Origin: the human T2T-CHM13v2.0 reference genome, Homo sapiens
Length of the DNA: 64,000 nt
Direction: 5' to 3'
Assembly: GCA_009914755.4 (NCBI GenBank)
Contig: CP068257.2
Span: 6,880,001 to 6,944,000 of the forward strand
Shown: piece by piece, positions 1 to 64,000 of the stretch
How positions within the stretch are numbered: position 1 is the first letter of the stretch
Layout: the number at the start of each line of letters is the position of its first letter
Program-made: the position numbers and the translations under genes
The notes under the pieces: generated by a model
Database searches by the model: none
What the model was told of the DNA's origin: nothing
The model's input: the letters and a program-made list of their open reading frames with translations, nothing else

Positions 1-1060
1 ATGATATGTCTACGTTATTAATTATATGTAACATATGTTATATATTATATATTTCACATGGAATACACGTTACATATAATATATACTATGATACCTATAA
101 CGTATAATTTATTAAATATAATATACTGTATCTCATATATTATATATAATTCATAATATACAGTATGTGGAATGTGTTATATATGACATGTAATATATGA
201 TATATATAACATGCAATATATCATATAGAACATACAATATATGATACATAATATATATGGTATACAAAATATATTTTATGATATATATTATATATGTGTT
301 ATATTATATTATATATAACTATTTAAAATTTTATATAACTGTATAATATTATACGTAAATATATAATATAATAAACATGACTATATATTATGTTATATAT
401 AATTTTATTACATACGTTACATAATATATCATACTATAATGCATATATTATATTATTTTATATTACATAATATATATTATATATCACATAATATATGCTG
501 CGTACATAATATTAAAATATATATTATATTATGATATATGAAATATCGTATATATTATGTATCCTATATTGTATAATGTACATTATATATTATATAACAT
601 GTATGTTGTCTATCATACGATATATAAAATTATATATATGATTATATTGTTATACCTATAACGATATAAATATGTAATTATATGTATCATTATTTATATT
701 ATATATTATTATATAATCATGTATAATTATTTATATTATATAAATAATTATATGATTATATAAATTATAATATATAAATTATACTATGTAATAAAAAATA
801 TATATATTATATATCATATATGATATAGTATATATGCTATATATCATATTATATATAAAAATATGTTATGTTATATACAATTATATATTTTCATATATAA
901 GATGTATAATATGTATTATCTATTATATATGTTATGTACTATATGTAATGTAAATAAGCTGACACAGGATAAATATTACATATTATGATATATAATATCT
1001 ATGAGGTTATATATTACATATAAAGCATATTACAAAACATATAATATATATCATGTATAA

Positions 1061-1352
1061 TTTTTTTTTAGACAGAGCCTTGTCCTGTTGCACAGCGTGG
1101 GGTACAATGGCGCCATCTTTACTCACTGCAACATCTGCCTCACGGGTTCAAGCGATTGTCCTCCCTCAGCCTCCCAGGTAGCTGGGAGTAGACCACACTG
1201 GGACTACACCAGCTGCCACCATGCCTAGCTAATTTTTTGGATTTTTAGCAGTGACAGCGTTTCACTGTATTGGCCAGGATGGTCTTGATCTCTTCACCTT
1301 GTGATCCCCTTGCCTTGGCCTCCAAATTTCCTGGGATTACAGGCCTGAGCCA
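1061..1352 (-). mobile_element. Alu SINE (antisense), embedded in macrosatellite unit 1
   Basis: Poly-T head then gacagagccttgtcctgttgcacag...cctcccaggtagctgggagta...ctgggattacaggcctgagccaag, the reverse-complement Alu consensus. It lacks the last ~12 bp. Confidence 0.9.
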
Positions 1353-3465
1353 AGATACATGTTTTTTAAATGAAGAAGAATTTCAAAGCTACTCTGCTTG
1401 GGACAAGAATCAAATATATAAACTGAGGAATAAAACATAACCATGAAACATATTTATAACTGCATATGGAAAATACAGAGGATAATTTTTTAAATAACAT
1501 ATTTTGAAAGCATTAACTAGTAATTTGAAGAGTTGGCATTTGAAAGGCCCGTATGAATATACCTTCAAAGCAGCAACACAGGTTCCCCATGAGAAAAATC
1601 AAACTCAGGGAAAATAAAACCACAAGGGTTCACTCTGTTCTGACCTTTGAAAAACACAGCACAGACAGTGGCCCTTAGGACCAAGAGCAGGAGATCCCTA
1701 ATCCCGTCACCACGGCGATAGGGCACAAACATTGCAGGGTGAGGGCACAATCCACATTGTGAGGTCCAACTGCTGCCGGGAAGACAGGAGTGCTTTTACA
1801 TAGACCCAAAGGTCATTGAAGGCTCAGTGTTTTGTTTCAAAAACTGAATCCCAAGCCCACACATTACTATGCTGCGCTTCTTAAAACAAGTTATGAGATG
1901 GGAAATAGGGCACCCACAAATATATCTATACATTATGTATATAATAATATATAGAATCATATATATAATATATGTAACATATATATATAATATTCTTTTA
2001 CACCCTGCATCTTACATTATGTATATTATATGTAATATAATAATTGAAAGTATATAAGTATAATATTTATACAATATGACATATAATAATTATATTTTAT
2101 GACATATATAATATATATTCTATATCATATATAGAATATATTATATGGTTAATATACGTACTAAATATATAATATACATTATATGTATTATATATATTAT
2201 ATCTACGTTATATATAACATACCTCATAGATAATATATATGATATCTCTGTTATATATAATATAAAATAACATAAAAAAATATATAATTGTATATATAAA
2301 ACATGACATATAATATATATTATATTTTATGACATATATAATACATATTATATATTATATATGTAATACGTTGTATGTATGATGCATATATTAAATATAT
2401 ATGATATGTCTACGTTATTAATTATATGTAATATATGTTATGTATTATATATTTTACATGGAATACACATGTTACATATAATTTATACTATGTTACCTAT
2501 AACGTATAATTTATTATATATAATATAATATATGTCATAAGTTATATGTAATTTATAATATACAGTATGTGGAATGTGATATATATGACATGTAATATAT
2601 GATATGTAACATACAATATATCATATATAACATACAATATATGATACATAATATATATGGTATACAAAATATATTTTATGATATATATTATATATGTTTT
2701 ATATTATATTACATATATCTATTTAAAATTATATATAACGGTATAATATTATACGTAAATATATAATATATATGACTATATATGAAGTTATATATAACTT
2801 TATTACATACTTTACATAATACATCATAATATAATGCATATGTTATATTATTTTATATTACATAATATATATTACATATCACATAATGTATACTACCTAC
2901 ATAATATTAAAATATATATTATAATATGATATATTAAATATCATATATATTATGTATCCTATATTGTATAATATACATTATATATTATATAACATGTATG
3001 TTGTCTATCATATTATATATATAATTATATATGATTATATTGTCATACATATAACGATATAAATATGTAATTATATATATCATTATTTATATTATATGTA
3101 ATTATATAATCATGTTTAATTATTTATATTTTATAAATAATTATATGATTTTATAAATTATAATATATATAAATTATACTATGTAATAAAAATATATATA
3201 TTATAGATCATATATGATATAGTATATATGTTACATATCATATTATATAGAAATATATGTTATGTTATATACAATTATATAATTTCATATATAAGATGTA
3301 TAATATGTATTATCTATTATATATGTTATGTAATATATATAATGTAAATAAGCTGACACAGGATAAATATTAAATATTATGATATATAATATATTTGAGG
3401 TTATATATTACATATAAAGCATATTACAAAACATATAATATATATCATGTATAATTTCTTTTTAG

Positions 3466-3748
3466 ACAGAGCCTTGTCCTGTTGCACAGCGTGGGGTACA
3501 ATGGCGCCATCTTTACTCACTGCAACATCTGCCTCACGGGTTCAAGCGATTGTCCTCCCTCAGCCTCCCAGGTAGCTGGGAGTACACCACACTGGGACTA
3601 CACCAGCTGCCACCATGCCTAGCTAATTTTTTGGATTTTTAGTAGTGACAGCGCTTCACTGTATTGGCCAGGATGGTCTTGATCTCTTCACCTTGTGATC
3701 CCCTTGCCTTGGTCTCCAAATTTCCTGGGATTACAGGCCTGAGCCAAG
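3466..3748 (-). mobile_element. Alu SINE (antisense), unit 2 copy of the same Alu
   Basis: Same sequence and same truncation point as 1061-1352. Confidence 0.9.
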
Positions 3749-62779: not shown

Positions 62780-63072
62780 TTTTTTTGAGACAAAGTCCAG
62801 CTCTGTCACCCAGGCTGGAGTGCAGTGGTGCAATCTTGGCTCACTGCAACCTCCACCTCCCGGGTTCAAGCGATTCTCCTGCCTCAGCCTCTCGAGTAGC
62901 TAGGATTACAGGCGTGCACCACCACGCCTGGCTAATTTTTGTATTTTTTTTTTTGGTAGAAATGGGGTTTCGCCATGTTGGCCAGGTTGGTCTCCAACTC
63001 CTGGTCTCAAGTGATCCACCTGCCTTGGCCTCCCAAAGTGCTGGGATTACATGCACGAGCCACCGTGCCTGG
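62780..63072 (-). mobile_element. Alu SINE (antisense)
   Basis: ttttttgagacaaagtccagctctgtcacccaggctggagtgcagtggtgcaatcttggctcactgcaacc ... gcacgagccaccgtgcctgg. Confidence 0.9.
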
Positions 63073-63340
63073 TTATATATTATTTTCTTACAACCTAAAT
63101 AAAAACCATTATGTAAACAAGACAAAACACTCAGTACATTTCCATAGTCGATGAATTTGTCTTTATTACTTGTATATAAATAATTATGAACTCCTTGAGT
63201 TCAGTTCCTTTTTCATTTCCTGACCCTATGGACTTGAACAAGGAAATTTAACCTCTCTGCTTCATTTGTAAAATGAAAAATAGTGATATCTACCTAAAGT
63301 GGTGGTGGTTAGATGAGAATAAAGTAATTTCTTTGTTTTT

Positions 63341-63640
63341 GTTTTTGTTTTTGTTTTTGAGATGGAGTCTCACTCTGTTGCCCAGGCTGGAGTGCAGTGG
63401 CACGATCTCGGCTCACTGCAACTTCTACCTCCTGGGTTCAACTGATTCTCCTGCCTCAGCCTTCCAAGTAGCTGGGATTACAGGCGCCTGCCACCAGGCC
63501 CGGCTAATTTTTGTATTTTTAATAGAAACGGGATCTCACCATGTTGGCCAGGGTGGTCTAAATCTCCTGACCTCAGGTGATCCACCCACCTCTGCCTTCC
63601 GAAGTGTTGGCATTACGTGTGTGAGCCACTGTGCCTGGCA
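63341..63640 (-). mobile_element. Alu SINE (antisense)
   Basis: gtttttgtttttgagatggagtctcactctgttgcccaggctggagtgcagtggcacgatctcggctcactgcaac ... gtgtgagccactgtgcctggc. Confidence 0.9.
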
Positions 63641-64000
63641 TAGATGGGAATAAAGTAATTCTTATAAAGTACTTGGCTTAGCTGCTGGCAAATAATAATG
63701 CTTACTGATTCTTGCATATTACCCATAGTTTATTGGCTAACTTTATGTCTTCCTTAAATTATGAAATTCTATAAAGTATCCTTGTCTATTTTAAAATTAT
63801 ACTCATTTTTATAACTTACATGCTTTATTTGTATATATCCAGGATACTAGATATTTGTAATCCAAATTGGAGGTTATTTTTTGTCATTTGATTTTTTTTC
63901 TGTAATGTGTGTTCTCACCACATAGAAGTTTTTACATTTTTATGTAGTCAGATTTATTCATGTTTTTATTTATGGTTATGTTAAAGATTATAGCTATTAG

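What the first reader, a model, noticed from the sequence alone, without database searches (positions are those of the whole stretch)
1..64000. Whole-window architecture: VNTR-dense, Alu-saturated, gene-free DNA with a subtelomeric-like signature and orientation-clustered Alus
Across 64 kb I count one macrosatellite, one higher-order satellite with dispersed paralogs, three long minisatellites, more than ten microsatellites, two long homopurine/homopyrimidine tracts and at least four Alu-containing tandem duplications. I find no credible exon.

Alus occur in same-orientation runs. Positions 24.7-27.0 kb hold six sense Alus. Positions 32.1-33.5 kb hold four antisense Alus. Positions 47.9-49.7 kb hold seven antisense Alus or Alu fragments.

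This combination matches human subtelomeric or segmental-duplication-rich territory. It is much less like typical gene-poor interstitial DNA, which has long unique stretches and mostly old L1 and few VNTRs.

Such regions are under-represented in GRCh38. They are frequent sites of structural polymorphism.
Basis: inference. Interest (0 to 1): 0.5.

Follow-up and report, generated by a model that had tools for sequence, protein, structure and literature searches.

The report
Edge of an HSat1B satellite array
The window is the edge of a known human satellite (HSat1B, the DYZ2 type) followed by about 52 kb of ordinary Alu-rich, tandem-repeat-rich, apparently non-coding primate DNA, so it is a well-described kind of region and not a new feature.

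Summary
Positions 1-12,025 hold five units of a 2,394-bp macrosatellite. The other 52 kb is 22% Alu and 16% tandem repeat. The three Alu runs (six sense, four antisense, seven antisense) are exactly as described.

The macrosatellite is HSat1B, the DYZ2 type. Each unit has a 5'-truncated Alu 20% diverged from AluY, a 583-bp GC-richer segment and a 1.5-kb segment of 87-89% A+T. Human-derived metagenome contigs carry the same unit at 89-98% identity.

Published maps place HSat1B on Yq12 and the acrocentric short arms, with one chr10 exception. No TTAGGG, CATTC or alpha-satellite motifs occur in the window. "Heterochromatin-adjacent and poorly represented in GRCh38" is therefore plausible. "Subtelomeric" has no direct support, and I could not map the window.

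Alu orientation clustering is real (12 runs against 22.9 expected, P=6e-4). Head-to-tail insertion into A-rich tails explains part of it.

Only two of the Alu "tandem duplications" outside the array carry duplication-specific evidence.

I found no CpG island, Rfam match, non-transposon Pfam domain or protein homologue.

Verdict: a known kind of region, of low interest.

The parts
1..12025 (.). HSat1B (DYZ2-type) composite satellite: 5.0 tandem units of 2,394 bp, running off the left end of the window. Unit starts are 1070, 3464, 5854, 8261 and 10657. The last unit is truncated in its AT-rich part.
   Evidence: Self-BLAST gives 90-97.6% identity to unit 1, declining towards the edge. The same unit occurs in 23 metagenome contigs. 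Published description.
1070..1352 (-). Alu-derived subunit of the satellite unit. It is 5'-truncated (consensus positions 13-280) and recurs at 3464-3746, 5854-6136, 8261-8543 and 10657-10939.
   Evidence: blastn to Alu consensus sequences. Global identity to AluY is 79-81%.
1353..1935 (.). GC-richer, non-Alu segment of the satellite unit (39% G+C). It has no homology to the flank.
1936..3463 (.). AT-rich segment of the unit (86.6-89% A+T). It is built from degenerate (ATATAAT)n-like repeats and is quasi-palindromic.
   Evidence: TRF, composition, and reverse-strand self-alignments of about 68% over more than 1 kb.
12980..16180 (-). Old L1 fragment (ORF2 C-terminal two-thirds), interrupted by a sense Alu at 14966-15248. 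The 5' limit of about 12980 was judged by eye.
   Evidence: Concatenated minus-strand ORF pieces match human L1 ORF2p (8sxt_A, E=2.4e-58). Sequence read.
18240..18849 (.). 45-bp (90-bp dimer) minisatellite, about 12 copies.
   Evidence: TRF; self-BLAST.
20951..23594 (.). (TCTA)n-derived complex satellite with dimeric higher-order units of about 255-295 bp.
   Evidence: TRF periods of 119, 258 and 295 bp. A 24-mer recurs 16 times with alternating spacing.
24763..27014 (+). Run of six sense Alus. The copies at 25650 and 25996 are an old tandem duplication of an Alu plus its tail.
27015..28283 (.). Repeat block containing (GAAA)n at 27015-27098, a 110-bp x 2.9 repeat at 27145-27467, and (CTAT)n at 27686-28261. 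It carries one exact copy of the satellite 24-mer at 28193 and an inverted copy of the 110-bp unit at 28028-28112.
31124..31746 (.). (TC)n homopyrimidine/homopurine tract, 623 bp.
   Evidence: TRF. It produces artefactual long ORFs.
32133..33451 (-). Run of four antisense Alus. Three are joined head to tail by 15-16-nt T-rich tails.
33570..36173 (+). Run of sense Alus. It includes a real local duplication at 35298-35893 of an Alu 3' half plus 100 bp of flank plus an A-run.
36710..37929 (.). 26-bp minisatellite, about 47 copies.
   Evidence: TRF.
40123..40290 (+). L1 ORF2 C-terminal remnant.
   Evidence: Matches L1 ORF2p residues 1217-1274, E=2.6e-23.
40511..40852 (.). (GAA)n/(GAG)n homopurine tract, 342 bp.
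   Evidence: TRF.
42120..43324 (.). 49-bp minisatellite, about 23 copies.
   Evidence: TRF.
46892..47379 (.). (ATCT)n degenerate microsatellite. It is not a true paralogue of the 21-23.6 kb satellite.
47912..49710 (-). Run of seven antisense Alus or Alu fragments.
45451..63639 (-). Domain in which 16 of 17 Alus are antisense. A Tigger DDE_1 remnant (51760-51924) and an L1 ORF1 remnant (58576-58809) are antisense too. The non-repeat DNA here has T>A skew.

Best explanation
The window spans the edge of an HSat1B (DYZ2-type) composite satellite array and about 52 kb of adjoining non-coding, repeat-dense primate DNA. It is a passive product of known mutational processes, not a functional system.

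**Shown**
- The 2.4-kb unit has the three published HSat1B parts.
- The unit is tandemly repeated, and the copies become less alike towards the array edge.
- The flank is 22% Alu and 16% tandem repeat.
- The flank carries old L1 and Tigger remnants and shows no sign of coding sequence.

**Inferred from established mechanisms**
- The array grew and is homogenised by unequal exchange. This works less well at array edges, which would explain the identity gradient.
- The micro- and minisatellites grew by slippage and unequal exchange.
- L1-driven target-primed reverse transcription nicks T-rich targets. An existing Alu A-tail therefore attracts a new Alu in the same orientation. This would give head-to-tail, same-strand clusters.
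- The known instability of closely spaced inverted Alu pairs would remove opposite-strand neighbours.

**Location (my estimate, not measured)**
- Acrocentric short arm: about 50%.
- Distal edge of Yq12: about 30%.
- chr10 or another site: about 20%.
For: **Unit anatomy**
- The period is 2,394 bp, with 5.0 copies.
- The 5'-truncated Alu is 79-81% identical to AluY. The AT-rich part is 86.6-89% A+T. The third part is 39% G+C.

**Published HSat1B/DYZ2 description**

**Independent copies**
- A 22-mer invariant in all five units found 23 metagenome contigs.
- Each aligns to the window's units, most over their full length, at 89-98%.
- They are 93-99% identical to the units in the Alu plus GC-richer part.

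**Edge gradient**
- Units 1-3 are 98% alike. Units 4 and 5 are 94-95%.

**Alu clustering**
- 11 of 12 neighbouring Alu pairs with gaps of 100 bp or less share orientation. Most of the gaps between them are A- or T-rich tails.

**No coding or RNA signal**
-.

**No other satellite or telomere motifs**
-.
Against: - The window could not be mapped, so the location and duplication status are inferences from the literature on HSat1B.
- The units are only 89-91% identical to most of the metagenome copies over the full unit. The array is therefore a divergent subfamily, and its home chromosome is unknown.
- I inferred that those contigs are human HSat1B from their sequence. They carry no annotation.
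- Tail-targeted insertion does not explain the whole orientation pattern. After collapsing head-to-tail clusters, clustering is still nominally significant (P=0.04). In addition, 16 of 17 Alus in the last 19 kb share one strand.
Confidence: 0.8

Rival explanations
1. Canonical subtelomeric DNA. On this reading the window lies within a few hundred kb of a chromosome end, in a patchwork of subtelomeric duplicons, and that setting explains the density of variable tandem repeats.
For: Minisatellite and microsatellite density is high: 16% of the flank is tandem repeat. Established literature reports that terminal regions of human chromosomes are enriched for minisatellites. A site distal on an acrocentric short arm would be both next to HSat1 satellites and near a telomere (mentions HSat1 in the distal short-arm sequence).
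Against: There is no TTAGGG-like repeat, even allowing 3 mismatches in 18 nt. G+C is a moderate 42% and there is no CpG island. The one diagnostic repeat present, HSat1B, is reported on Yq12 and the acrocentric short arms, not at ordinary subtelomeres.
Confidence: 0.08
2. An ordinary, uniquely mapping part of a chromosome arm that happens to contain a small, old HSat1B-like array (for example the reported chr10 exception). The right-hand third may lie inside a long intron or non-coding transcription unit on the + strand, and that would have biased the orientation of transposon insertions.
For: The flank carries ancient interspersed repeats typical of old unique DNA: L1, Tigger, and Alus of the AluS and AluJ subfamilies. 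The array is a divergent subfamily, 5-10% from most other copies. In 45-64 kb, 16 of 17 Alus plus an L1 ORF1 and a Tigger remnant are on the minus strand. The non-repeat DNA there shows T>A skew of +0.12 and G>C skew of +0.04. Those signs match what is described for the sense strand of transcribed regions.
Against: No promoter-type CpG island or exon signal was found. Antisense L1 content alone can produce the T>A skew. The published antisense bias of intronic Alus is weak, far from 16 of 17 (from my own knowledge). I chose the domain boundaries after seeing the data.
Confidence: 0.15
3. The Alu runs are mainly products of local tandem duplication, and not of independent insertions.
For: TRF reports Alu-length periods: 335 bp x 2.8, 302 bp x 3.0 and 310 bp x 2.0. 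Two duplications are real. 25650/25996 share an exact 26-nt tail. 35298-35893 shares Alu-internal variants and 100 bp of flank at 96%.
Against: Most Alus are closer to a family consensus than to any other Alu in the window, and the exceptions exceed it by less than 2 points. Neighbouring Alus are 77-87% alike, the same as unrelated pairs. In the 32.1-33.0 kb and 48.1-48.7 kb clusters, no non-Alu flank is shared.
Confidence: 0.2

Closest known systems
HSat1B / DYZ2 (RepeatMasker HSATI), the composite classical satellite of Yq12 and the acrocentric short arms
   Same: The unit length is about 2.4 kb. The unit has three parts: a 5'-truncated ancient Alu about 20% diverged from AluY, a region of more than 85% AT, and a GC-richer region. 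It is arranged in tandem. It is 89-98% identical to independent human-derived copies. The AT-rich part is rich in inverted repeats.
   Different: The units here are less uniform (90-98%) than the figure of over 98% published for most Yq12 copies. They form a subfamily 5-10% away from most of the retrieved copies. The array abuts transposon-bearing DNA directly, not DYZ1/HSat3.
Human subtelomeric duplicon regions (TAR1, interstitial TTAGGG, subtelomeric duplications)
   Same: High density of minisatellites and microsatellites, and no coding sequence detected.
   Different: There are no telomere-like repeats. G+C is moderate. A classical pericentromeric or heterochromatic satellite is present instead.
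Head-to-tail Alu clusters formed by insertion into A-rich tails, together with depletion of close inverted Alu pairs
   Same: 11 of 12 Alu pairs separated by 100 bp or less share orientation, and most of the gaps are A/T-rich tails.
   Different: The strand bias extends over about 19 kb (16 of 17 Alus), further than tail-targeting alone explains.

Membership tests
HSat1B / DYZ2 satellite | Tandem repeat unit of about 2.4-2.5 kb | tested here: met
   The period is 2,394 bp, with 5.0 copies. Published values are about 2.4-2.5 kb.
HSat1B / DYZ2 satellite | The unit contains a 5'-truncated ancient Alu about 20% diverged from AluY | tested here: met
   Alu consensus positions 13-280 are present. 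Identity to AluY is 79-81% in all five units.
HSat1B / DYZ2 satellite | Extremely AT-rich segment (more than 85% AT) | tested here: met
   86.6-89.0% A+T over about 1.53 kb in each unit.
HSat1B / DYZ2 satellite | A further, more GC-rich non-Alu segment | tested here: met
   A 583-bp segment of 39% G+C. It is highly conserved between units and unrelated to the flank.
HSat1B / DYZ2 satellite | Sequence similarity to independent HSat1B copies | tested here: met
   23 metagenome contigs share the whole unit at 89-98% identity. That they are human HSat1B is my inference, because no curated consensus was available.
HSat1B / DYZ2 satellite | Location on Yq12, an acrocentric short arm or chr10 | not testable with these tools
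   No human reference genome could be searched.
Subtelomeric region | Telomere-like (TTAGGG)n islands | tested here: not met
   No match with up to 1 mismatch in 12 nt, or up to 3 mismatches in 18 nt.
Subtelomeric region | TAR1 or other subtelomeric duplicon sequence | not tested
Subtelomeric region | Elevated minisatellite density | tested here: met
   16% of the 52-kb flank is tandem repeat, including three minisatellites of 0.6-1.2 kb.
Subtelomeric region | Position within about 0.5 Mb of a chromosome end, with copies on other chromosome ends | not testable with these tools
   Needs alignment to T2T-CHM13 and the segmental-duplication track.
Alu-containing tandem duplication | Copies share non-consensus variants, tail sequence or non-Alu flank beyond family-level similarity | tested here: inconclusive
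   Met for 25650/25996 (exact 26-nt tail) and for 35298-35893 (100-bp flank at 96%). Not met for 32118-33009 or 48122-48733.

The most novel reading that the evidence does not exclude
The last 19 kb (45.4-64 kb) may be a strand-polarised domain. In it, 16 of 17 Alus, an L1 ORF1 remnant and a Tigger remnant all lie on the minus strand. The remaining non-repeat DNA shows T>A and G>C skew. The region to the left (24.7-41.5 kb) is mostly plus-oriented. One explanation would be an unannotated long + strand transcription unit. Another would be a fixed replication-fork polarity switch near 42-45 kb, next to a satellite block, that has biased retrotransposon insertion or retention over tens of millions of years.
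Probability: 0.12. Interest if true: 0.35.

Novelty: already known. Interest (0 to 1): 0.15.

Why it matters
It matters little beyond annotation.

- Recognising positions 1-12,025 as HSat1B replaces a vague "subtelomeric-like" label with a specific, testable placement: the edge of a Yq12, acrocentric short-arm or chr10 satellite block.
- Such edges are useful anchors for assembling and genotyping regions that were mostly missing from GRCh38.
- They are also plausible sites of structural variation.
- The Alu orientation pattern is a clean local example of known insertion and retention biases.
- Only the longer-range strand polarity is unexplained.

Tried and rejected
**Searches that found nothing or failed**
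- Rfam gathering-threshold scan of the whole window: no match, and the Alus did not reach the 7SL threshold.
I replaced it with 317 stop-free pieces submitted as pseudo-alignments.
- Exact look-up of ten window ORFs in the 15-billion-protein collection: none present. Only the three ATG-start ORFs were valid tests, because a GTG or TTG start translates differently.
- Scan of bacterial and archaeal genome contigs for the HSat1B 22-mer: no hits.
- Search for homology between the satellite's GC-richer segment and the flank, to test whether the array arose in place: none found.
- Literature searches for what flanks HSat1B arrays, or for the chr10 exception: no usable detail.

**Weak matches rejected as chance**
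- Pfam hits to DUF6747 (E=0.004), GluR_Homer-bdg (E=3e-4), ApoC-I (E=7.5e-4) and KH_Vigilin (E=0.0075).
- With 317 queries, matches at these E-values are expected by chance.
- On re-scan, the ApoC-I hit scored below Pfam's cutoff and lies on a piece I judged by eye to be Tigger transposase.

**My own readings that tools did not support**
- I read the minus-strand pieces at 59.6-60.4 kb as L1 ORF2 by eye. The PDB search did not confirm this.
- Translated pieces at 12.6-12.9 kb look like retroviral gag by eye. Pfam and the protein search found nothing.

**Other**
- Contig L012 is the closest relative of the window's units. It turned out to be a chimera of one satellite unit with bacterial-looking DNA, so it gives no flank information.
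Full report
**What the window is made of**

The window has two clearly different parts. Positions 1 to about 12,000 are 19-27% G+C. The rest averages 42% G+C, with a CpG observed/expected ratio of 0.25. That is ordinary methylation-depleted primate DNA.

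TRF lists 134 rows of tandem repeats. Five of them lie about 2,394 bp apart in the AT-rich part, and 48 lie in the remaining 52 kb.

**The macrosatellite**

Self-BLAST shows 5.0 head-to-tail units of 2,394 bp, from position 1 to about 12,025. The window starts inside the array. Identity to unit 1 is 97.6%, 96.0%, 91.2% and 90.3% moving towards the array end. The last unit stops inside its AT-rich part, and non-repeat sequence follows directly.

Each unit has three parts:
- a minus-strand Alu lacking its first 12 bases, 79-81% identical to AluY;
- a 583-bp segment of 39% G+C that is nearly invariant between units;
- about 1.53 kb of 86.6-89% A+T, built from degenerate heptamer-like repeats.

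This is the published anatomy of HSat1B, also called DYZ2 or HSATI. The T2T-Y paper describes a tandem repeat of about 2.5 kb. [quoted passage not shown] Hallast et al. give about 2.4 kbp, with a 5'-truncated Alu (10.1101/2022.12.01.518658). [quoted passage not shown]

**Independent copies of the unit**

A 22-mer that is invariant in all five units found nothing in the bacterial genome collection. It found 23 metagenome contigs.
- Each aligns to the window's units, most over their full length. Many are about one unit long, as expected for collapsed assemblies of contaminating human satellite reads. That origin is my inference.
- Most are 89-91% identical to the window's units over the whole unit. 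In the Alu plus GC-richer part they are 93-97% identical.
- One contig, L012, is 97.9% identical over 2.3 kb. It clusters with units 1-3 in a neighbour-joining tree.

The window therefore carries a genuine HSat1B array of a subfamily that differs from the most common copies. The fall in similarity from units 1-3 (98% alike) to units 4 and 5 (94-95%) is the usual pattern of weaker homogenisation at an array edge.

**What this means for location**

I could not map the window, because none of the searchable collections holds a human reference genome.

[quoted passage not shown] It reports 14.2 Mb on Yq12 and 1.2 Mb on the acrocentric short arms. The one reported exception is on chr10. Yq12 copies are reported as more than 98% alike. 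DYZ2 blocks there alternate with DYZ1/HSat3 blocks.

In this window the units are more diverse. The array adjoins L1- and Alu-bearing DNA directly, and no (CATTC)n sequence is present. I therefore lean towards an acrocentric short arm. The distal end of Yq12 is second, and chr10 or elsewhere is third. These weights are judgement, not measurement.

The window has no TTAGGG-type repeat, no CENP-B box and no match to the alpha-satellite motif I tried. The "subtelomeric" label thus has no direct support. "Poorly represented in GRCh38" fits what is published for HSat1B. Duplication status is untested.

**The 52-kb flank**

Tandem repeats cover 16% of the flank.
- minisatellites at 18240-18849, 36710-37929 and 42120-43324;
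- (TC)n of 623 bp and (GAA)n/(GAG)n of 342 bp;
- well over ten microsatellites.

The 20951-23594 array is a (TCTA)n-derived satellite with real higher-order structure. A 24-mer recurs 16 times with alternating spacing of about 110 and 165 bp. One exact copy of that 24-mer lies at 28193, so the 27.7-28.3 kb block is a true relative. The 46.9-47.4 kb block is merely (ATCT)n.

Alus make up 22% of the flank. That is about twice the genome average, which is enriched but not "saturated". They are mostly AluS, with some AluY and AluJ, and are 79-93% identical to my consensus sequences. None looks young.

Older transposon remnants are also present:
- an L1 ORF2 fragment at about 13.0-16.2 kb on the minus strand (E=2.4e-58 to the solved ORF2p structure);
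- an L1 ORF2 C-terminus at 40.1-40.3 kb on the plus strand;
- an L1 ORF1 domain at 58.6-58.8 kb on the minus strand, and a Tigger-type DDE_1 domain at 51.8-51.9 kb on the minus strand.

**Genes**

- The only windows meeting CpG-island criteria are short stretches that mostly coincide with Alus. One is an artefact of the GAA/GAG tract.
- Rfam finds nothing at gathering thresholds.
- The longest ORFs lie in simple repeats, Alus or GC-rich stretches that are open on both strands.
- Of 317 stop-free pieces of at least 42 aa from the non-Alu, non-tandem DNA, only the L1 and Tigger domains pass Pfam. The four other weak hits are at chance level for that many queries.
- A concatenation of the 16 longest non-repeat pieces found no protein at E<=1e-3 among 5.8 billion clusters.

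"No credible exon" stands. The caveat is that short exons and non-coding RNA genes cannot be excluded this way.

**Alu orientation**

Across 44 Alu elements outside the array there are 12 orientation runs, against 22.9 +/- 3.3 expected (P=6e-4).

Of 12 neighbouring pairs separated by 100 bp or less, 11 share orientation, and most of the gaps are A- or T-rich tails. This fits new Alus inserting at the T-rich nick sites that existing A-tails offer. It also fits the known loss of closely spaced inverted pairs. Both are established mechanisms that I am inferring here.

When such tight clusters are collapsed, clustering is weaker but still nominally significant (P=0.04). In 45.4-64 kb, 16 of 17 Alus are on the minus strand, as are the L1 ORF1 and Tigger remnants. 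The remaining non-repeat DNA there has T>A skew of +0.12 to +0.165. Antisense L1 content can produce that skew. I chose the domain after seeing the data, so I treat it as an unexplained observation and not a finding.

**Alu "tandem duplications"**

Most Alus in the window are closer to a family consensus than to any other Alu. The few exceptions exceed it by less than 2 points.

The TRF arrays at 32118-33009 and 48122-48733 are 77-87% alike, the same as unrelated Alu pairs, and share no non-Alu flank. They look like independent head-to-tail insertions.

Two cases are real duplications:
- The Alus at 25650 and 25996 share an exact 26-nt stretch of an idiosyncratic A-rich tail.
- The segment 35298-35893 repeats an Alu 3' half with shared internal variants, 100 bp of flank at 96%, and an A-run.

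Counting the Alu inside the satellite unit, that makes three supported cases, not "at least four".

**Verdict**

The wrong landmark was chosen. The diagnostic element is a known classical satellite of Yq12 and the acrocentric short arms, not a subtelomeric signature. Nothing here lies outside known kinds of sequence, so interest is low.

Noticed in passing
45451-63639: 16 of 17 Alus, an L1 ORF1 remnant (58576-58809) and a Tigger DDE_1 remnant (51760-51924) are all on the minus strand. The non-repeat DNA here has T>A skew of +0.12 to +0.165 and G>C skew of +0.04. By contrast, 24.7-41.5 kb is mostly plus-oriented. The cause is unknown.
   Followed up: partly
27145-28112: The 110-bp x 2.9 repeat at 27145-27467 has an inverted partial copy at 28028-28112 (88-93% identity). 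Inverted arms therefore flank the (CTAT)n tract at 27686-27987.
   Followed up: no
38056-39850: A minus-strand Alu is split at its A-rich linker into 39338-39451 and 39705-39850. The 253-bp insert between them is a 93.5% copy of 38056-38316. Both copies begin with a (CAAA)n-type tail followed by sequence that looks like an L1 3' end.
   Followed up: no
1936-3463 and the equivalent part of each unit: The AT-rich part of the satellite unit aligns to itself in reverse orientation at about 68% over more than 1 kb. It is therefore quasi-palindromic, which fits the published enrichment of inverted repeats in HSat1B.
   Followed up: no
42120-43324 and 27145-27467: The 49-bp minisatellite unit and the 110-bp repeat unit both resemble, from memory, parts of a common human interspersed repeat. 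They may be tandem expansions of transposon fragments. This was not tested, because no repeat library was available.
   Followed up: no
12600-12900: Translated plus-strand pieces look like a retroviral gag fragment by eye. Neither Pfam nor the large protein search supported this.
   Followed up: partly
16200-16780: A GC-rich but CpG-poor stretch is open for about 100-136 codons in several frames on both strands. It has no protein homologue and no Pfam domain, so this is most likely a composition effect.
   Followed up: yes
L012:2619-3690: The metagenome contig closest to the window's satellite units is a chimera. It joins one HSat1B unit to about 1 kb of bacterial-looking, CpG-containing DNA. 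This illustrates human satellite contamination in metagenome assemblies.
   Followed up: partly
32133-34090: An antisense Alu trimer (32133-33020) and a sense Alu dimer (33570-34090) face each other about 550 bp apart, with matching (AAAT)n-type 15-nt linkers. Identity between the arms is 85-87%, no higher than between unrelated Alus, so an inverted duplication is not demonstrated.
   Followed up: partly
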